Shown: positions 1-6,662, counted from the stretch's first letter. The stretch is DNA of 6,662 nt from an archaeon (GCA_024275415.1 JAJRZD010000116.1:1-6662), one strand, 5' to 3'. Notes: a model not told the origin generated them from the sequence alone. Program-made: numbers and translations.

Positions 1-49
1 CTGGTGACCAAGGTTGTACAACTAAAAATGAACGGTAAGGCACATTCCT

Positions 50-951
50 ATCCTCAATACGATAGACAACCTCGACCAGCAGAACCCGAACTCGTCGACA
101 CCACCCCCAACGCAGGATTCGCCGGATGGGGGAGAGCCAGAACCCGTGGTGCATGATGGAACTGGCACTGGCTCAATAAGAGAATCGCAATCTCAATCTG
201 CAGATGTTGCTCTTGCTCAGACTACTCGGCAGCTGACCGTTTACTTTTGGACAGGTTGGTGGCCCCTTTTGCACACTGTAATATATGAAGCACTTGGTCA
301 AGTAAGTTCGATAAACGAAATAATATCTACTTCAACAGTTATACTCCATACAACAATAGATTTACTGGGTGAGATAATCTGGTTGATTGATGATTTCATC
401 CAATGGGCTATGAATACTTTTGGTTGGGGGGCAGAATTCGTGGAATACCTTATCGCAATCATCAATGAGATTGCTGATGAAGCCATGGAAGCTGGAGTTC
501 TAATACTTATGGAGATGGCTGCTGCAGATGGATGGTCTATGATACGGTCATCTTGATTCCTCCAAATCCAGCTAATGCAGGACTTGTTCCAATGGCACTA
601 ACAACAGCTGCATTCCTCACGTGCCTTTTTATTGCAGTTGCCTTTACATTGACTGCCACACTCATCGAGCTATTTGGTTACTCGGCAGCTGGCGCATTGT
701 GGGTTTTCATTGGCATTGTAGCAGTGTTATCATATTTTGGCTTGGGATACATTAACTTGGTGTCTTCATCAATGAGGTCAATTGCAAGAGGGGTGTTCAA
801 TGCTGCAGCGAAATTCTTTGGATTTGGTGTCTATTACTTGGACAAGTCCAAGATCATATATGCACACGGAACACGGAATTTCTTTTATCCATTAATTGCC
901 ATTTCCATTGGTGCCATTGCATACTATGGATGGCTAGCGGGTCAAGAATAG
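50..951 (+). pseudogene. Cassette 1: start-less C-terminal module (conserved junction, WxGWWP domain, multi-TM tail), split by a frameshift near 525-545
   Basis: Frame +2 is open from 32 (after TGA 29-31) and reads ILNTIDNLDQQNPNSSTPPPTQDSPDGGEPEPVVHDG into ORF 146..556, with no ATG before the junction. ORF 532..951 (frame +1) supplies the hydrophobic tail. Joined, they give the same domain order as cassettes 2 and 3 (junction, WTGWWP at 248-265, IDLLG with DLLG at 359-370, TM helices). Confidence 0.75.
53..130 (+). repeat. Conserved junction repeat, copy 1 (most diverged)
   Basis: Encodes LNTIDNLDQQNPNSSTPPPTQDSPDG, 14 of 26 aa identical to copy 2 by manual alignment. The 13-mer acctcgaccagca (69-81) is also present in copy 3. 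Confidence 0.8.
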
Positions 952-954
952 GAG
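950..954 (+). promoter_or_regulatory. Putative Shine-Dalgarno site for the 964 gene
   Basis: AGGAG overlaps the cassette 1 stop codon (TAG 949-951) and lies 9 nt upstream of ATG 964. Confidence 0.5.
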
Positions 955-963
955 CGAACTCAA

Positions 964-1410
964 ATGCAATCTGAAAAGTCAATCATAGAGGGACTATGGC
1001 TTGTGGTAGGTGGAGAGGCGATACTATTCGCAATCTTTGGACTGATAATATATATCCTAACAATAAAGACTGACCAAACCCTTCTATCCAAATTATCTAG
1101 GATGAGTAATCCCTCTCAGGAGGCGGAATGTGGACTAATCAGGTTCTACACTAGACATACCCTTGGTTATGATATTCTGTTCTGGTCGCTCATTGTCGCT
1201 TCATTCACATGTGTGCTGTCCTATTTTTATCTCCGTATCGATATAGGAGGCTTTCTGATCACCGTTGTATTTCTGGTGTCATTCCTCTGGCAACTGAAAG
1301 ACGAAAAGCGTACTGCAAAGGGACGTGCTTTCCACTATCAGAGAACAAACGAAACCAATGGCATACTCCTCTTAGAAACTGAGGAGGACTCTGACATGAC
1401 AGGAGCATGA
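964..1410 (+). CDS. Small 3-TM membrane protein, putative cognate partner (immunity-like) of cassette 1
   Basis: Intact 148 aa ORF starting 12 nt after the cassette stop, with an RBS. Three hydrophobic segments, a polar loop after the first and an acidic C-terminal end. The function is inferred from position only. Confidence 0.75.
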   Translation: MQSEKSIIEGLWLVVGGEAILFAIFGLIIYILTIKTDQTLLSKLSRMSNPSQEAECGLIRFYTRHTLGYDILFWSLIVASFTCVLSYFYLRIDIGGFLITVVFLVSFLWQLKDEKRTAKGRAFHYQRTNETNGILLLETEEDSDMTGA

Positions 1411-1512
1411 ATTCTTCTACAAACTAATGTGGGAATATTCCCCTACGTTCTTAGTTTGGACGGTTCTATTGCCATGTACCATCCATAACGCACACTCGAG
1501 CAAGATGATTAA

Positions 1513-2340
1513 CTTCAAAGGACATTATTCACCTATGTCATCAACGTCGTCACTGACCTCAACAAGCACGACCCCAACTCAGCTACTCCGCCACCGACGC
1601 AGGATCCGCCTGCTGGTACTTCTGACACCACAGTACAATATGATGGTACTAACAAAGGTGTACCTGATTGTAGTGGTGGTCGAACATTTACTGCAAGCTA
1701 TGAGCAAATCGCCCAGAATGCCATTACTATAGCATGGGCCGGATGGTGGCCCACTCTGGTCATCACATGCAACTTAGATCTCCATGGACTTGCATTTGCA
1801 ATGGAACTAAGAGTCGACCTCCTTGGCTCACTCACAGTGTCCTCAATCAGTGTAAGCCATTCTGTCTTGAATTCTGCATCGGATGCAGAACTACAGGTAT
1901 CCATAGATACAATAATGGGTCTTAGTCCTGTGAAGTTCTACAGCATAGTAGCAGTCCTATCATTGACTAGCGCACAGTTTTGGGCAACATTTAGTTTGCT
2001 TCCATATGCAAAAGCGTTGTTTATCGCTTCAGTTGTTGCATATACGCTCTCTTCATTGGCGTTGATATACTCGATAGCGCAAGCCTATTTTGATGGTTCA
2101 CTAGGTTACCTTGATGCATTCGTTGGACTATTTTCAATAGTCTGGGGTCTTGTATTCGCAGGGCACACAATCTCGAACCAGAGCATTTTTGGTCGAATCT
2201 TCAGCTGCTTGGAAAAGTACCGAGCTCCACCCACTGATTGGGGTTACCCAGATGTCTTCCTACTTATGTCACGGGTATTGATTTTGCTCTTAGGAGTTGC
2301 AGTTGCTGCAGGTATCTTTTTTAGCGGAATTAGTGGCTAA
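1513..2340 (+). pseudogene. Cassette 2: start-less but otherwise uninterrupted C-terminal module
   Basis: Frame +1 is open from 1513 (after TAA 1510-1512) to 2340 and reads LQRTLFTYVINVVTDLNKHDPNSATPPPTQDPPAGTSDTTVQYDG...IAWAGWWPTL...MELRVDLLG... plus a multi-TM tail. The called ORF 1801..2340 is only its 3' part; there is no ATG before the junction. Confidence 0.8.
1540..1617 (+). repeat. Conserved junction repeat, copy 2
   Basis: Encodes INVVTDLNKHDPNSATPPPTQDPPAG. Bases 1539-1607 match 4707-4773 at 63 of 69 positions (4 substitutions, one 2-nt gap). Confidence 0.92.
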
Positions 2341-2381
2341 ACAAAATGGGCAGTATCAAAAAAAACTGGAAGTGCTGAGAG

Positions 2382-2807
2382 ATGGCGATTGATATTTCGC
2401 TTGTGTTATTCATATTTACACTTTCTAGCATCCCCTTCCTAATCATTGCAATTGCAACCGTACAGACAGTGATCTATAAGAATCGCATACTGAGAGGGGA
2501 TATCTCTCATGCATCCGAACTTCCCTACTTGGTTCGGATGCATGGAATAACGGTGCGGAAACTATCTACTAGTATCTTTACTAATGCTATAGTAGTTTCC
2601 ATCTTCTTTGGATTTCCGATTCTGTCTGTAGGGGTGCTGTGGCCCGAAGAACTGGGTTCTTTTATTGCAGACCTGCAATTTTGGATTATCCTATGGTTTG
2701 TGCTGGCCTTCATAAGAATCATGTTCTATAGTCCTGACTCAACAGGTGGCCTAGGCAATGCATATGAGCTTCTAGATGTGGACGAAAACAGAGAACATGA
2801 TACATAG
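2382..2807 (+). CDS. Small 3-TM membrane protein, putative cognate partner (immunity-like) of cassette 2
   Basis: Intact 141 aa ORF starting 41 nt after the cassette stop. Pattern is TM1, basic loop, TM2, TM3, acidic tail (ELLDVDENREHDT). Confidence 0.75.
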   Translation: MAIDISLVLFIFTLSSIPFLIIAIATVQTVIYKNRILRGDISHASELPYLVRMHGITVRKLSTSIFTNAIVVSIFFGFPILSVGVLWPEELGSFIADLQFWIILWFVLAFIRIMFYSPDSTGGLGNAYELLDVDENREHDT

Positions 2808-2858
2808 TATGTATCATTGAATTGGAAAGGGTCAAGGGTTTGATACTGGATTCAATGG

Positions 2859-3184
2859 ATGGAAAGGATAATCTTTGAACTAATACTTGGGATCATTTCT
2901 GTGGTAACAATGATCGTACTAGGTGCAATCTTGCTTCGCACACCCATCGGCAACAAAAAACAGGAGCGAAAAGAGGATCTAGAATTGTATTGATATGGGT
3001 CTTTGCGATTGCTATTCTGTCTTCTAGTTCTTACATTTTATGGTTAGCTCCCATAGATACAACCCCCATTGTACTAGATATTGTCATGACATTCATGGGG
3101 GCGATAGTATTTCCAAGTATCATGTACCCAACCCAAGGAGAAACGCAGGTACATGATCCAGATTCCACGGAACATCTCGAATGA
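2859..3184 (+). pseudogene. Frameshifted small membrane protein (second, orphan partner-like gene)
   Basis: ATG 2859 (frame +3) reads MERIIFELILGIISVVTMIVLGAILLRTPIGNKK. One extra A in the A6 run at 2955-2960 would join it to frame +2 TGAKRGSRIVLIWVFAIAIL...TEHLE (called ORF 2990..3184), giving an approximately 108 aa 3-TM protein. Confidence 0.6.
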
Positions 3185-3432
3185 TGATGGCTTTCAATTC
3201 ATTCCCTGGGAGAGGCTCGACATATCTCATTAGGGATACGAGTCGCATTGAGGTAATCTACTATGATCCAACACCTAATAGACACCACAATGGTTAGTGT
3301 CAATGCTCGTACAGAAATATGACAATGCTGATGCAATCGGTTCCTGATGTACATGAGTCTGCACTAATCGTTTTTGTGATTTCCGCAGTCCACTGGCTGA
3401 CTGTGCCGTAATGACTATATGCAGACAGACTT

Positions 3433-3777
3433 TCAATCACGCATCTCTTGGAAAAGCCTGATGATTTCGGGTTTGATCTGGGGTATGGCAATCTCTATCG
3501 CATCCCATACGAGCTTGTAATCGATTCCAAAATAGGCATGAATTAGTCTGTCACGCATCCCTGCCATCTCCTTCCATGGTACATTGGGAGCCTTGTCCCT
3601 GACACTATCGGGAACTCTCTTCGCAGCCTCTCCAATGATTTGGAACTTCAATACGACCGCACTGGATGTCTTATCGTCATTGACAAAATCCTGATAGTCA
3701 ATACCTTCCACGAATCGCTCAATCGCCTCAATAGCATCCAGTATATCGCTTAAGAAGAATCGGGTCTCTCGGTTCAT
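3433..3777 (-). CDS. hepT: HEPN-domain (DUF86/HepT-like) RNase toxin
   Basis: 114 aa with a typical DUF86 pattern (LSDILDAIEAIERF...IIGEAAKRV...VPWKEMAGMRDRLIHAYFGID...VWDAI). RDRLIHAY fits the RX4HXY motif. Its start overlaps the upstream MNT stop (ATGA, 3774-3777). Confidence 0.93.
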   Translation of the reverse strand: MNRETRFFLSDILDAIEAIERFVEGIDYQDFVNDDKTSSAVVLKFQIIGEAAKRVPDSVRDKAPNVPWKEMAGMRDRLIHAYFGIDYKLVWDAIEIAIPQIKPEIIRLFQEMRD

Positions 3778-4067
3778 ATTGCCACGACCTCGGCTAATAT
3801 CATATTCCTTAGCTCTGAACGCAGCGTCCTCTCAGAAACAACATCTACTTTCTTGCCCAGCAACTCTTCGAGGAAGAAACCTAGTCCGACCATGTCGAAT
3901 AGAGTGGCACCATCTTTGAATCTGACGAGGATATCGATATCACTTCCTGGCTTTTGGGTACCTCTTGCATATGAACCGAAAATGCCTAGGATTTGGGCCT
4001 TGAACTTGGATGCGACCAGTTCTTTCTTGCCATTAAGGGTCATTTTCAGTTCTTCTAATGCATCCAT
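3774..4067 (-). CDS. mntA: Minimal nucleotidyltransferase (MNT) antitoxin
   Basis: 97 aa with IFGSYARGTQKPGSDIDILV, which fits GSX10DXD, and a C-terminal LEELLGKKVDVV segment typical of MNTs. Translationally coupled to the HEPN gene. Confidence 0.93.
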   Translation of the reverse strand: MDALEELKMTLNGKKELVASKFKAQILGIFGSYARGTQKPGSDIDILVRFKDGATLFDMVGLGFFLEELLGKKVDVVSERTLRSELRNMILAEVVAI

Positions 4068-4076
4068 ACTTTCGTG

Positions 4077-4082
4077 ACCACC
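4077..4082 (-). promoter_or_regulatory. Possible Shine-Dalgarno site for the MNT gene
   Basis: GGTGGT on the minus strand, 9 nt upstream of the ATG at 4067. Confidence 0.35.
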
Positions 4083-4119
4083 AAGATCTATTCATGTATC
4101 AATGTCGTCCAGAACCTAA

Positions 4120-4339
4120 AAAGCATTTGAAAAGCATGAACCAGAGCAACTTTTGGACTACACATTTGGATCCATCCTTGCAACAGCAGCATTATTTGTG
4201 GTCACGGCCATCCTAGCTATATGGCAACCAATAACCACAGTTGACATTTCATCGGATCTAGAATACTGACAGCATCTATAATGTTGGCTTGGCATACACT
4301 GCATTTTTGGGTTCTCTGATACTAATAGGAGAACAATGA
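4120..4339 (+). pseudogene. Possible remnant of another small membrane protein gene
   Basis: Frame +1 (4120-4269) reads KAFEKHEPEQLLDYTFGSILATAALFVVTAILAIWQPITTVDISSDLEY. Frame +2 (4262-4339) reads NTDSIYNVGLAYTAFLGSLILIGEQ. This gives two TM-like stretches in adjacent frames with no start codon. Confidence 0.35.
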
Positions 4340-4475
4340 ACAGCCCGATTGGTAAGACAGATGGAGGTTGGTGAATGCAAACAGGAATAGATCACCTTTC
4401 ACACATCTCATTGTCGAATGAGTTATATTCGGGCTGTCGTATGCTACATCACGAGTAATGTAAAAGGGGGATGAG

Positions 4476-5545
4476 ATGTCGTGTCCTCATGCGGACTTGC
4501 GGATAACCTATACGAAGGACCACTACTACGAGGTATGGTACGCTCGCAGCTCCTGCCCCCGGAAACCCGATCTTTACAAGCATCGACGGGTCAGGGTCGT
4601 CCCAGCCCATCGGTGAGGTAGAGAACGCCTCCCGGGTCATCACGTACGTGGGGGTCCTGGGCTACCGCCTTGACAGCTACACCCTGGTGGACATGCGCCT
4701 CCACGACATCAACGTCGTCACAGACCTCGACCAGCACGACCCCAACTCAGCTACTCCCACCGACGCATGATCCTCCAGCCGGAGAAGAATCATCCTTCAT
4801 CGAGTATGATGGGATCTCCAATGGCAATGATGCTGTGATTGAAGAAACATATGGGACTCATTTTGACCAGATCCAAAATGACGCAGCTGATGCTGTAGTG
4901 ACTTACTGGATCGGTTGGTGGCCTGAACTACATGTTGATGTTACAAAATCATATTCAGCGGATGTCCAGATTACAGTCCGCTCCAAAATAGATATCCTCG
5001 GAAGTTGTACCATTGAGAGCATTGATGTACAATTGGCTGGATTGGAAGACCTTACTGAGGAAGAGGCAGATGTAATGGTTCAAACTCAGCAACAAAATAC
5101 TAACCAGTTTGCCAAAGATATGGTGGCATTTTGGGGGTATGCAGTCATGCTCGCGTTTTTTGTATTGGGAATAACAACAATGCTCCCAACGCCAATTGCT
5201 GATGGCCCACTTGCTTCAATATGTGTCATTGTTGGTTTTACATATTTCTTCTATTGCTGGACACTTGTTTATGCTTTGAGACATTCAGCACTTACACAAG
5301 AACAAATATCTGACACGTTCATAACGCAGAGTCTATCGCTACTCCTTGCCGCATTAACCTTTTTCCTGGGAGCTAGATGGGCTGGAGGTAGCTTCGGAAG
5401 AGTTCTGGGAGAATTCGGGGGTAATTATGGCATCACCAAGAAGGGCTTTGCCATTCGCTCAAACATGGCAGCGTTTATTACATGTCTGCTATGTCTTTTG
5501 ATGACTCTGGGAATATGGCATGGTGTAAACATGGGATGGTGGTAA
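4476..5545 (+). pseudogene. Cassette 3: long GC-rich parent-gene fragment with two frameshifts, fused to an intact variable C-terminal module
   Basis: Frame +3 reads ADLRITYTKDHYYEVWYARSSCP with GC-rich third positions, then shifts at the C5 run (4556-4560) to frame +1 GNPIFTSIDGSGSSQPIGEVENASRVITYVGVLGYRLDSYTLVDMRLHDINVVTDLDQHDPNSAT. A 2-nt deletion relative to copy 2 (about 4757) then shifts to frame +2 PPTHDPPAG...YWIGWWPELH...IDILG... and the multi-TM tail ending at 5545. GC is 145/240 (60%) over 4501-4740. Confidence 0.8.
4708..4783 (+). repeat. Conserved junction repeat, copy 3 (carries a 2-nt deletion)
   Basis: About 91% identical to copy 2 over 69 aligned positions. It reads gctactc-ccaccg where copy 2 has gctactccgccaccg. 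Confidence 0.92.
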
Positions 5546-5569
5546 ATATAAGGTTAAAGAAACAAAAGG

Positions 5570-5935
5570 ATGGAGTGGATAGAGATGTTTAGGGTTGAGT
5601 ATTTAGTGCCAGGGTTGATGGTGACCATTGCAAGTTTCATCTACGTCTATTCTGCCATGAGGGCAAGATCCAAGATGCAGAGTGTAGATGATTATTTGAC
5701 AGTTTGGGGTAGAAGGTTCGTTCAGAATACAGACAACATGATTGCCATGGGGACGTTCTGGATCCTCACGTTGACAGCGCCATTCCTTTCTGCATACTTG
5801 CTGACGTTTATCTTCATGCCCCTCGATCTAAATGATGTATTCTCAACCACCTATGTCGGATTTGGCTTATCATTGATAATAGGCATTCTGGCACCATTCC
5901 GTTTCAAAGAAATAGAAGACACGGTCATTTCCTGA
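5570..5935 (+). CDS. Small 3-TM membrane protein, putative cognate partner (immunity-like) of cassette 3
   Basis: Intact 121 aa ORF starting 24 nt after the cassette stop (ATG 5585 is an alternative start). Pattern is TM1, basic loop, TM2, TM3, acidic tail. Confidence 0.75.
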   Translation: MEWIEMFRVEYLVPGLMVTIASFIYVYSAMRARSKMQSVDDYLTVWGRRFVQNTDNMIAMGTFWILTLTAPFLSAYLLTFIFMPLDLNDVFSTTYVGFGLSLIIGILAPFRFKEIEDTVIS

Positions 5936-5954
5936 ACTACAAGGGGAGAACAGG

Positions 5955-6343
5955 GTGCAGAATTTACTCGATACGGCACTGTTCTTCAATTTCGTACTAG
6001 CGGGTATTCTTGATTCATCGGGGGAGAAATAATCGATGGAACAATTGAATCGCTGGAGGACAAGGACGTCGGTGAGTTCGGCCTGAGGATGGGACTACTT
6101 TATCGTGAGAAACGACGCACATGGCATGCTCTTGCGGGTGGATCTGTAGTTATGGCATGGATCTTGCTTGCGACTGGTGGATATATATCCAGCCTGCAAT
6201 TGCTATGGGACTATCCGGGCCTTGTCATTGAAAGCGTGGCCATTGTAATCGTTGCATTCACCTTGCTTCCCATTTTTCTCTGGCATCGATTAAGGTACAT
6301 GTCCAAGTTCTCCACGCAGACACACGTAAGGGAAAACATCTGA
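5955..6343 (+). pseudogene. Frameshifted small membrane protein (second, orphan partner-like gene)
   Basis: GTG 5955 follows GGGGAG (5943-5948) and reads MQNLLDTALFFNFVLAGIL in frame +3. A shift near 6012 to frame +2 gives FIGGEIIDGTIESLEDKDVGEFGLR, which runs into ORF 6089..6343. The joined product is an approximately 129 aa 3-TM protein. Confidence 0.6.
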
Positions 6344-6443
6344 CCATGATGGTTCTATTGACGACTAGGAATTCATGAGCAAACTCAGATGTTGGTATCG
6401 GGATTGACAACCACATGAAGGTGCCCCATTTGACTTGTTCTCT

Positions 6444-6662
6444 ATGAATGTCTGGATGGGCAAGACTTACGTTGCCCTCTTCGACGAGGACAAGCAGACC
6501 GTCATGTAGATCCTCTGGGGCGACTCCTGGGTGGGGAGCACGAAGGGGTACTTCAACGTCTACTACTACCCCCAGAGCGGCGGTTACTATACGCAAGGCT
6601 CAGGGTACCTCTACTCCTCCTTCACCAAGACGGGGAAGTTGTGGTGGGGCCCGTACCAGGGC
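6444..6662 (+). pseudogene. Probable start of cassette 4: GC-rich parent-gene fragment with an in-frame stop, truncated by the window edge
   Basis: Frame +3 reads MNVWMGKTYVALFDEDKQTVM*ILWGDSWVGSTKGYFNVYYYPQSGGYYTQGSGYLYSSFTKTGKLWWGPYQG, with TAG at 6507-6509. GC is 107/180 (59%) over 6481-6660, third positions are strongly G/C, and the Tyr/Gly/Trp-rich composition resembles the cassette 3 arm. Confidence 0.55.

What the first reader, a model, noticed from the sequence alone, without database searches (positions are those of the whole stretch)
50..6662. Tandem array of silent, interchangeable C-terminal cassettes, each with a partner gene: candidate uncharacterised polymorphic toxin or kin-recognition system
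Seen: three units of [start-less conserved fragment, variable membrane domain, intact small 3-TM gene], plus the probable start of a fourth. Established: orphan rhs-CT/rhsI and cdiA-CT/cdiI arrays have this logic, where a degraded homologous 5' stub allows recombination of a new C-terminus and its cognate immunity gene onto a full-length gene. Inference: these cassettes are a reservoir of alternative C-termini for a large surface protein outside the window. The stub has no YD/RHS or filamentous haemagglutinin features that I can recognise, so the delivery protein may belong to a different family.
Basis: partly seen in the sequence, partly recalled or inferred. Interest (0 to 1): 0.9.

Follow-up and report, generated by a model that had tools for sequence, protein, structure and literature searches.

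The report
Spare membrane-tail cassettes, Thorarchaeota surface protein
This contig from an Asgard (Thorarchaeota) archaeon is a row of spare "tail plus partner" gene cassettes for the end of a large surface protein, laid out like bacterial polymorphic toxin/immunity loci but made of unknown protein families, so it is a candidate archaeal cell-to-cell weapon or recognition system whose function is untested.

Summary
The window is a whole 6.6-kb contig. It holds three complete units and the start of a fourth.

**Each unit**
- A short stub copied from the 3' end of a large gene.
- A Pro-rich linker and a conserved small head with the motifs W-x-G-W-W-P-x-L-H and D-L-L-G.
- A hypervariable tail of about 165 aa with about four membrane helices.
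- An intact small partner gene with about three membrane helices, 12-41 nt downstream.

**Parent gene**
- It lies on contig C119 and is split there by a 2-nt insertion.
- Intact versions of 1061-2115 aa occur in nine related Thorarchaeota genomes.
- Among parents, the N-terminal domain is 54% identical (median). The tails are 21% identical, about the shuffled level of 19%.

**Links between cassettes and parents**
- Tail type and partner type travel together for units 2 and 3.
- A tail/partner type that is an orphan here ends a full-length gene in another genome.
- All four units here are untranslatable as stub-tail fusions, while all three partner genes are intact.

**Known families**
- The tail model is confident (pLDDT 86.5) but matches no known fold.
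- No Pfam family matches the tail, the partner or the parent.

**Reading:** a Thorarchaeota-restricted polymorphic system. Most likely it is a membrane-depolarising toxin with a membrane immunity protein, closest in logic to the CDI ionophore toxins. Function is untested.

The scan reached the same reading earlier on two other contigs of this genome (e1-5424397, e1-916453).

The parts
53..136 (+). Unit 1 stub (diverged last strand of the parent's lectin-like domain) and Pro-rich linker
   Evidence: It aligns to parent residues 174 onward. Window 1-123 is 98.4% identical to C110:79274-79396, and window 1-128 is 94.5% identical to the last 128 nt of the parent contig C119.
137..553 (+). Unit 1 head (W-G-W-W-P and D-L-L-G motifs); the frame ends early
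   Evidence: Head-profile hit at E 7.6e-16. The first start codon in this frame is GTG at 146.
481..951 (+). Unit 1 membrane tail, in another frame (frameshift within about 481-553)
   Evidence: Membrane helices are predicted. P0079 carries homologues of both the head and this tail in a single ORF.
964..1410 (+). Unit 1 partner gene, 148 aa, about 3 membrane helices, intact with an ATG start
   Evidence: It starts 12 nt after the tail's stop codon.
1513..2340 (+). Unit 2 cassette: short stub (1540-1590), linker, head and 4-helix tail in one open frame, with no start codon before 1801
   Evidence: The tail is 42-54% identical to tails in other Thorarchaeota records.
2382..2807 (+). Unit 2 partner gene, 141 aa, about 3 membrane helices
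   Evidence: A 41%-identical homologue lies directly after the unit-2-like tail in L056 and L057. A decayed tail-plus-partner copy lies at C39:7437-7908.
2859..3184 (+). Two short overlapping membrane ORFs (44 and 64 aa); possibly a decayed partner-type gene
   Evidence: No homologue was found in the sequences held.
3433..3777 (-). HepT-like (HEPN) ribonuclease toxin gene
   Evidence: Pfam PF01934, E 1.6e-29.
3774..4067 (-). MNT nucleotidyltransferase antitoxin gene; overlaps HepT by 4 nt
   Evidence: Pfam PF01909, E 2.2e-15.
4487..4539 (+). Relic of the parent's N-terminal part, fused to the unit 3 stub (internal-deletion scar)
   Evidence: 89% identical to C119:103421-103473.
4570..4756 (+). 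Unit 3 stub: last ~60 codons of the parent's last lectin-like domain
   Evidence: 81% amino-acid identity to the parent, and 87-97% DNA identity in 30-nt windows. G+C is 60% here against 43% in the tail.
4757..5545 (+). Unit 3 linker, head and 4-helix tail, out of frame with its stub because of a 2-nt deletion between 4756 and 4757
   Evidence: DNA alignment A5. AF2 model with pLDDT 86.5. Tail homologues found in G020, G037, G024 and G052.
5570..5935 (+). Unit 3 partner gene, 121 aa, 3 membrane helices
   Evidence: Its homologues lie directly after the unit-3-like tails in G020, G037, G052 and G015. Alignment A4.
6089..6343 (+). Extra small membrane ORF (84 aa) between unit 3 and unit 4
   Evidence: Homologues lie at own C38:47562-47852 and upstream of a cassette in G015 C400.
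6456..6662 (+). Unit 4 stub: middle of the parent's last lectin-like domain, with an in-frame TAG at about 6507; cut by the contig end
   Evidence: 91% DNA identity to C119:104759-104962. One TAG is reported inside the match.

Best explanation
The window is an array of orphan cassettes that belongs to a polymorphic surface-protein system found only in Thorarchaeota.

The parent protein has these parts, in order:
- a signal-like N-terminus;
- a conserved alpha/beta domain with an invariant His and Cys;
- two or three lectin-like beta-sandwich repeats;
- a junction (V-D-M-R-x-H-D-I-N-V-V-x-D-L) and a Pro-rich linker;
- a small conserved head;
- a hypervariable bundle of about four membrane helices.

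Each tail is followed by a small cognate membrane protein. Orphan cassettes keep a stub of near-identical parent DNA. Inferred: this stub allows homologous recombination that replaces the parent's tail and partner together.

Most likely mechanism (inferred, not shown): the tail is a membrane-inserting, depolarising (ionophore or pore type) toxin, and the partner is an intramembrane immunity protein that binds it. Because the protein leaves by the Sec route, the tail also sits in the producer's own membrane. That would explain the strict one-to-one linkage with a partner gene.

Transfer to neighbours is the weakest step. It could happen by vesicles or membrane exchange, or after cleavage by the His/Cys domain.

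In this genome the only parent gene and all four window cassettes are broken or lack a start, while the partner genes are intact. That is what is expected if immunity is kept under selection.

My odds:
- about 0.9 that this is a parent-plus-orphan-cassette polymorphic system;
- about 0.5 that the pair is specifically a membrane toxin with its immunity protein.
For: Repeats and stubs:
- The junction is repeated 16-17 times on six contigs.
- Stubs are 90-100% identical to the parent in DNA. Similarity is random upstream and decays within about 90 nt downstream.
- G+C drops from 56-60% in the parent ectodomain and stubs to 42-44% in tails and partners.

Parents:
- Intact parent genes exist in nine relatives.
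- The N-terminal domain is 54% identical (median) and the tails 21%, about the shuffled level of 19%.

Linkage of tail and partner:
- Every tail is followed within tens of nt by a membrane ORF of 100-220 aa.
- Unit 3 tail homologues in four genomes are each followed by a unit 3 partner homologue.
- The same holds for unit 2 in L056 and L057.
- Across 378 cassette pairs the odds ratio is 15.8, p = 7e-4, although the pairs are not independent.
- The orphan type at C110:84206 is the tail of the full-length gene in G052 (tail 47% identical, partner 43%).

Mosaic breakpoints:
- Window 1-123 is 98.4% identical to another cassette and then unrelated to it.

Condition of the cassettes:
- 12 of 18 orphan tails in this genome remain open.
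- All three window partner genes are intact, while the stub-tail fusions are broken.

Structure and analogy:
- The tail model has pLDDT 86.5. It shows one helix, a 4-stranded sheet, and then four long helices and one short one.
- CDI alpha-helical ionophore toxins are helix bundles with small hydrophobic immunity proteins. They have radiated into many cognate pairs at 20-39% identity (PMC11630599).
- Sec-dependent polymorphic toxins with releasing peptidases are known (PMC3482391).
Against: - No toxicity, binding or transfer has been shown.
- The tail matches no known toxin or pore fold.
- All tails belong to one homologous family. Classic polymorphic toxin loci instead carry unrelated toxin domains.
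- As made, the tail should be an ordinary membrane anchor in the producer. No secretion or injection machinery lies next to the parent gene.
- Some database orphans begin at the conserved Met of the junction (18 of 178 proteins). They might therefore be expressed on their own rather than silent.
- The only parent gene in this 93%-complete assembly is frameshifted.
- The G+C break could partly reflect the amino-acid composition of membrane proteins.
Confidence: 0.55

Rival explanations
1. It is a non-lethal self or kin recognition system. The variable membrane tail and its partner would form an allele-restricted intramembrane complex, as with Proteus IdsD/IdsE, which tells a cell whether a neighbour is kin. 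The lectin-like ectodomain would provide the contact.
For: - The architecture and the co-variation are the same as in the best explanation.
- The variable determinants are membrane-embedded, as reported for the IdsD/IdsE variable regions (PMC4471559, listed; I saw only its listing and the start of its abstract).
- No recognisable toxin fold was found.
Against: - Ids depends on a type VI secretion system. None is seen near the parent gene.
- Arrays of orphan cassettes with retained partner genes are typical of toxin/immunity loci.
- There is no evidence of transfer between cells.
Confidence: 0.2
2. It is a cell-intrinsic module. The tail would simply be the membrane anchor or signalling end of a surface lectin and the partner its membrane co-factor. 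The cassettes would provide variation for another reason, for example escape from viruses or from other organisms' toxins that use this protein as a receptor. That would be pilS-like or vls-like antigenic variation.
For: - Export by a signal peptide would leave the four helices in the producer's own membrane (topology read from the sequence).
- There is no delivery machinery nearby.
- A defence-type HepT/MNT pair sits inside the array, here and in another genome.
Against: - The most variable part is buried in the membrane, not the exposed lectin-like part.
- Antigenic-variation cassettes do not need a co-varying partner gene, yet one is present in every unit.
Confidence: 0.12
3. The cassettes are not silent spares. 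They would be a family of independently expressed two-gene operons (a membrane protein plus a small membrane protein), and the stub would be a conserved N-terminal leader.
For: - Gene callers predict 260-400 aa proteins for most family members (154 of 178 proteins held are under 450 aa). 18 of the 178 start at the conserved Met-Arg-x-His-Asp.
- 12 of 18 orphan tails in this genome are open.
Against: - In the window no unit can make a stub-head-tail protein from a normal start.
- Stub lengths vary from about 20 to over 200 nt, with stop codons just upstream.
- Stubs are truncated pieces of a folded beta-sandwich domain.
- There is no signal peptide to export the head.
Confidence: 0.1

Closest known systems
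Polymorphic toxin systems with orphan CT/immunity arrays (CdiA-CT/CdiI, Rhs-CT/RhsI), as defined by Zhang et al. 2012 (PMC3482391)
   Same: - A large exported protein with a conserved demarcation before a hypervariable C-terminus.
- A cognate small gene immediately downstream.
- Downstream arrays of start-less CT-plus-partner cassettes that keep a homology stub.
- A possible releasing peptidase domain.
- Embedded toxin-antitoxin genes.
   Different: - The host is an Asgard archaeon.
- There are no RHS/YD or haemagglutinin repeats, and no PAAR, LXG or other known trafficking domain.
- All tails belong to one new family of membrane domains, not to diverse enzyme toxins.
- Toxicity is unproven.
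CDI alpha-helical ionophore toxins (CdiA-CT EC93 family) and their CdiI proteins (PMC11630599)
   Same: - A two-part CT: an N-terminal domain followed by a membrane-spanning helix bundle.
- A small, very hydrophobic cognate partner.
- One homologous family that has radiated into many cognate pairs at about 20-30% identity.
   Different: - No sequence or fold match was detected.
- Here the N-terminal head is the conserved part and the bundle the variable part.
- The partner is larger (100-220 aa, about 3 helices, against 72-100 aa with 2 helices).
- Delivery cannot go through CdiB or an outer membrane.
Proteus mirabilis IdsD/IdsE self-recognition pair (PMC4471559)
   Same: Two membrane-associated proteins whose variable subdomains set allele-restricted binding.
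   Different: - Ids is exported by a type VI secretion system and has no orphan cassette arrays.
- No homology was found.
VARTIG module of Thermococcales (PMC8416519)
   Same: - An archaeal PTS-like locus.
- A large surface protein whose C-terminal region is shuffled by recombination.
- Downstream membrane proteins that track the variable subfamily.
- No identifiable toxin.
   Different: - The variable part of VARTIG is a soluble Ig domain, not a membrane bundle.
- The lineage and the protein families are different.

Membership tests
Polymorphic toxin system (Zhang et al. 2012) | Large exported multidomain protein with an N-terminal export signal | tested here: met
   Parents of 1061-2115 aa have a hydrophobic N-terminal segment followed by an A-x-A-like site. 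This was read from the sequences, not from a predictor.
Polymorphic toxin system (Zhang et al. 2012) | Hypervariable C-terminal domain after a conserved demarcation | tested here: met
   Median identity is 54% for the N-terminal domain and 21% for the tails, against 19% for shuffled tails. The junction motif is conserved.
Polymorphic toxin system (Zhang et al. 2012) | Cognate gene immediately downstream that co-varies with the C-terminus | tested here: met
   Adjacency holds in all cassettes. Co-variation is shown for units 2 and 3. It was not detectable for unit 1.
Polymorphic toxin system (Zhang et al. 2012) | Orphan CT-plus-partner cassettes with a stub homologous to the parent | tested here: met
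   There are 18 orphan cassettes in this genome. Their stubs are 90-100% identical to the parent in DNA.
Polymorphic toxin system (Zhang et al. 2012) | The C-terminal domain is a toxin and the partner protects against it | not testable with these tools
   This needs expression and competition assays.
Polymorphic toxin system (Zhang et al. 2012) | A recognised toxin or immunity domain family | tested here: not met
   No Pfam hit reaches its cut-off for tails or partners. Fold searches found no known match.
Rhs/YD or CdiA (two-partner secretion) effectors | RHS/YD repeats, or a TPS domain with haemagglutinin repeats and a VENN motif | tested here: not met
   No such Pfam domains occur in the own parent or in seven full-length relatives. 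The junction motif is different.
CDI alpha-helical ionophore toxins | Homology to the CT-EC93 five-helix bundle | tested here: inconclusive
   The model has four long helices and one short one. No sequence or fold match was found, but those toxins may have no solved structure in the libraries searched.
Caspase-like (clan CD) peptidase, for the parent's N-terminal domain | Caspase-haemoglobinase fold with a His...Cys dyad after consecutive strands | tested here: inconclusive
   - His115 and Cys150 are invariant in 10 sequences and follow strands in the model.
- The model is poor (pLDDT 56.7).
- Z is 7.0-7.6 to CHAT and caspases, tied with other generic alpha/beta folds at Z 8.5.
- There is no Pfam hit.
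HepT/MNT type VII toxin-antitoxin pair (minus strand 3433-4067) | Adjacent HepT-like HEPN gene and MNT nucleotidyltransferase gene | tested here: met
   PF01934 scores 102.5 bits and PF01909 scores 57.2 bits, both above their cut-offs. The genes overlap by 4 nt.

The most novel reading that the evidence does not exclude
Thorarchaeota would have a lineage-specific, contact-dependent or vesicle-dependent weapon or kin-discrimination system. A Sec-exported lectin-type surface protein would carry a swappable, membrane-embedded ionophore tail of a new fold, and each tail would be neutralised inside the membrane by its own small partner. The tail would reach neighbours by membrane exchange or vesicles, not by an injection machine. 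This would be the first membrane-targeting polymorphic toxin system of archaea. It would also be a handle on how Asgard cells tell each other apart when their membranes touch.
Probability: 0.4. Interest if true: 0.8.

Novelty: new variant of a known kind. Interest (0 to 1): 0.7.

Why it matters
- Intercellular conflict and recognition in archaea are almost unstudied experimentally, and nothing of the kind is described for Asgard archaea in the literature I could search.
- The locus has the full genomic logic of polymorphic toxin systems, yet the delivery protein, the tail and the partner are all new families.
- It is confined to one Asgard phylum. The profile search found 286 cluster representatives, and every one of the ten checked that carries an organism name is Thorarchaeota.
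- It gives concrete, small, testable protein pairs. Units 2 and 3 have natural non-cognate controls.
- It would extend the ionophore-plus-membrane-immunity theme to archaea.
- It may bear on how Asgard cells, which interact through membrane protrusions, discriminate partners.

Tried and rejected
- **Complex prediction.** The unit 3 tail (residues 95-262 of A2) with its partner (A4) gave no verdict (score 0.01). This is not evidence either way.
- **Sequencing runs.** None was listed for the window, and no RNA holder was listed. Expression, population variants at the two 2-nt indels and switched junctions could therefore not be examined.
- **Sequence searches for known families.**
  - Pfam on the tails, partners and own parent gave nothing above cut-off.
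  - Pfam on the N-terminal domain alignment gave nothing.
  - Pfam on seven full-length relatives gave only accessory beta-sandwich domains (DUF2341, Glce_b_sandwich) in some of them.
  - A profile search of PDB sequences with the parent N-terminal alignment gave no hit.
- **Fold searches with the tail model.**
  - PDB: the best hit is CorA at E 0.011 and TM 0.23, which is not meaningful.
  - AlphaFold DB clusters: the only hits better than E 1e-3 are two uncharacterised proteins, probably members of this family; the rest are weaker and not meaningful.
  - ESM Atlas: nothing meaningful.
- **Lectin-like repeat.** The Atlas feature search gave only weak leads (0.82-0.87) to glycan-binding beta-sandwiches.
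- **Unit 1 partner co-variation.** The nearest tail relative, P0079, is 27% identical, and its downstream gene is not significantly similar (E 0.14).
- **Shared toxin-antitoxin pair.** I asked whether the window's HepT/MNT pair is the same one as in the array of L056/L057. It is only weakly similar (37% over 49 aa), so these are probably independent insertions.
- **Contig order.** I tried to order the contigs. C119 and C110 end, and C102 starts and ends, inside stubs at 88-98% identity. No exact overlap exists, so the order is unresolved.
- **Literature.** Makarova et al. 2019 (mBio 10:e00715-19) is the main survey of archaeal polymorphic toxins. It is not held, so I could not check whether it lists this family.


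Full report
**Where the window lies.** The window is the whole of contig C102 (6662 bp) of a 3.5-Mb, 127-contig genome that is 92.9% complete. Homologues that carry an organism name are all Candidatus Thorarchaeota, which are Asgard archaea.

**Observation: shared unit layout.** On the plus strand there are three full units and the start of a fourth. Each unit consists of:
- a stub that matches the end of a large gene;
- a Pro-rich linker (P-P-P-T-Q-D-P-P-A-G type);
- a conserved head of about 60 aa with the motifs W-x-G-W-W-P-x-L-H and D-L-L-G;
- a tail of about 150-165 aa with about four hydrophobic helices;
- after 12-41 nt, an ATG-started gene for a small protein with about three membrane helices.

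**Observation: the individual units.**
- Unit 1 runs from 53 to 951 and its partner gene is 964-1410. It is frameshifted between head and tail. The homologue P0079 has both in one ORF.
- Unit 2 (1513-2340, partner 2382-2807) is one open frame, but it has no ATG, GTG or TTG before 1801 and only a 17-codon stub.
- Unit 3 has a long stub (4570-4756). A 2-nt deletion inside the Pro-codon run, relative to seven other copies, puts the tail (to 5545) in another frame. Its partner gene is 5570-5935.
- Unit 3 is also preceded by a 53-nt relic of the parent's N-terminal region (4487-4539). That marks it as the remnant of a once longer gene.
- Unit 4 (6456-6662) is 91% identical in DNA to the parent. It contains a TAG and runs off the contig.

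So none of the four units can be translated as a stub-head-tail fusion, while all three partner genes are intact.

**Other features of the window.**
- A HepT/MNT toxin-antitoxin pair lies on the minus strand at 3433-4067.
- Small membrane ORFs lie at 2859-3184 and 6089-6343.

**The parent gene.**
- The junction occurs 16-17 times in the genome: on C102, C39, C110, C53, C96 and C119.
- Only C119 carries the upstream part. ORFs 102543-104624 and 104594-105958 together make the parent. They are split by a 2-nt insertion relative to homologues. A partner gene follows at 105981-106520.
- C119 then ends inside a new stub that is 94.5% identical to the first 128 nt of the window. The assembly therefore breaks at these repeats, and the window may lie downstream of the parent or in a second array.
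- Nine related genomes from several genera have the gene intact, at 1061-2115 aa.

**Parent architecture.**
- A hydrophobic, signal-like N-terminus.
- A conserved domain of about 260 aa with invariant His115 and Cys150.
- A middle region.
- Two or three copies of a beta-rich repeat of about 170 aa. Atlas features give only weak leads to glycan-binding sandwiches. Some relatives add DUF2341 or Glce_b_sandwich domains.
- The junction, which is the last strand of the last repeat, followed by linker, head and tail.

No Pfam family matches the own parent gene, and no RHS/YD or haemagglutinin domain matches it or its relatives. The parent's neighbours are aromatic amino-acid biosynthesis genes and a 2606-aa Ig/macroglobulin-type surface protein. 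There is no secretion machine.

**Evidence that the cassettes are spare ends for the parent.**
1. In 30-nt windows the stubs are 90-100% identical to the parent over 30-180 nt. Similarity is random upstream and is lost about 90 nt after the junction.
2. G+C falls from 56-60% in the parent ectodomain and stubs to 42-44% in tails and partners. The genome average is 47%. Membrane-protein composition may contribute to this drop.
3. Among ten parents, median identity is 54% in the N-terminal domain, 32% in the last repeat, 23% in the head and 21% in the tail. Shuffled tails give 19%.
4. The same tail/partner type can be an orphan in one genome and the end of a full-length gene in another.
   - C110:84206 here matches the G052 parent, with tail 47% and partner 43% identical.
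   - Two further tail-only cases exist: the own parent's tail resembles a G022 orphan, and the G007 parent's tail resembles the C39:10929 orphan.
5. Cassettes are mosaics with breakpoints at the linker. Window 1-123 is 98.4% identical to C110:79274-79396 and then unrelated to it. The next segment resembles C39:2851-2944.

**Tail and partner form a unit.**
- In all cassettes and parents examined, the tail is followed at once by a membrane ORF of 100-220 aa.
- Unit 3 tail homologues in G020 (63%), G037, G052 and G015 are each followed by a unit 3 partner homologue. The G020 partner is 50% identical.
- The unit 2 tail (42%) and partner (41%, E 4e-27) are adjacent in two other Thorarchaeota records.
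- A decayed unit-2-like tail-plus-partner copy lies on C39.
- Across 378 cassette pairs, tail similarity predicts partner similarity (odds ratio 15.8, p = 7e-4). The pairs are not independent.
- For unit 1 the nearest relative is too distant to tell.

**Size and spread of the family.**
- A profile of stub end, head and tail finds 286 cluster representatives among 1.84 billion proteins.
- In the sample of ten representatives I looked up, six carry an organism name and all six are Thorarchaeota.

**Structure.**
- With 67 sequences, AlphaFold2 models the unit 3 tail region at pLDDT 86.5. It shows one helix, a four-stranded sheet that carries the conserved motifs, and then four long helices and one short one.
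- Foldseek against the PDB, AlphaFold DB clusters and the ESM Atlas find no known fold. Only two uncharacterised proteins, probably members of the same family, match in AlphaFold DB clusters.
- Reading the sequence with the positive-inside rule puts the head outside and the Lys/Arg-rich loop between helices 3 and 4 inside. This fits an exported ectodomain. It is an inference.
- The N-terminal domain model is poor (pLDDT 56.7). It is a generic alpha/beta sandwich in which the conserved His and Cys follow strands. Matches to CHAT and caspases (Z 7.0-7.6) are tied with many unrelated folds, and there is no Pfam hit. The caspase-like idea from earlier scan notes therefore remains unproven.

**Mechanism.**
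- Shown: the genomic logic of a polymorphic toxin system (parent, demarcation, hypervariable end, co-varying neighbour gene, orphan arrays with stubs).
- Inferred: recombination at the stub or linker swaps the tail and partner together.
- For the action of the pair, the closest precedent is the CDI alpha-helical ionophore family.
  - It has a helix bundle with a small hydrophobic immunity protein.
  - It is one homologous family that has diversified into many cognate pairs at 20-39% identity.
  - Its authors attribute this to the mutational robustness of ionophore-immunity pairs (PMC11630599).
- That precedent also explains why all tails here belong to one family.
- Sec-dependent polymorphic toxins with releasing peptidases are known (PMC3482391).
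- I therefore favour a membrane-depolarising tail with an intramembrane immunity partner (about 0.5).
- Delivery is the weak point. As synthesised, the tail should sit in the producer's membrane, and no delivery machine is nearby. Vesicle or membrane exchange, or cleavage and release, are speculation.
- Rivals are an Ids-like recognition pair, a cell-intrinsic variable anchor, and independently expressed two-gene operons. For the last, 18 of 178 database proteins start at the junction's conserved Met.

**Novelty.**
- Searches of the held literature found no description of an Asgard or Thorarchaeota polymorphic system.
- The 2019 survey of archaeal polymorphic toxins is not held, so it could not be checked.
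- The Thermococcales VARTIG module is an archaeal analogue with a soluble variable domain.
- The scan itself has already reached the same reading on two other contigs of this genome. My tests agree with those notes, except that the caspase-like and lectin-like labels are not established.
- I class it as a new variant of a known kind.

**What failed.** The complex prediction gave no verdict. No sequencing runs were listed.

Noticed in passing
window 3433-4067 (minus strand); L056 4251-5113: A HepT/MNT toxin-antitoxin pair sits inside the cassette array. Another Thorarchaeota record (L056/L057) also has an MNT/HepT pair between cassettes, just upstream of a unit-2-like cassette. The two pairs are only weakly similar (37% over 49 aa), so these look like independent insertions into the same kind of variable locus.
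   Followed up: partly
G000 C119:104585-104600 (L009 4585-4600): The only parent gene in this assembly is split into 717-codon and 474-codon frames. The cause is a 2-nt insertion in a TCTC run, relative to intact homologues. I could not tell whether this is fixed, variable in the population or an assembly error.
   Followed up: partly
G000 C119:90397-98217 (L054 2398-10215): A 2606-aa surface protein lies about 4 kb upstream of the parent gene. It has Big_1, Big_3_5, filamin, MG2/MG4 macroglobulin-type and prenyltransferase-toroid domains. Archaeal macroglobulin-type modules have been discussed as sharing features with polymorphic toxin loci (PMC8416519).
   Followed up: no
window 6089-6343; G000 C38:47562-47852; G015 C400 (L051 3156-3359): The small 2-helix membrane ORF between unit 3 and unit 4 belongs to a family. 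One member lies upstream of a cassette in another genome. Another lies elsewhere in this genome, next to LarA-like and cysteinyl-tRNA synthetase genes. Its role is unknown.
   Followed up: partly
window 1-128 and 6403-6662; ends of C119 and C110; C53 and C39: Several contigs of this assembly start or end inside cassette stubs at 82-98% identity, so the assembly is broken at these repeats. The true number and order of arrays is unknown.
   Followed up: partly
G007 C61 parent gene (L036 12451-16278): In one relative the head and tail follow fibronectin-type-III-like repeats instead of the lectin-like junction. The head-plus-tail module can therefore sit on different stalks.
   Followed up: no
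window 2859-3184: Two short overlapping membrane ORFs (44 and 64 aa, three helices in total) lie after the unit 2 partner. They look like a frameshifted partner-type gene without a tail, but no homologue was found.
   Followed up: partly
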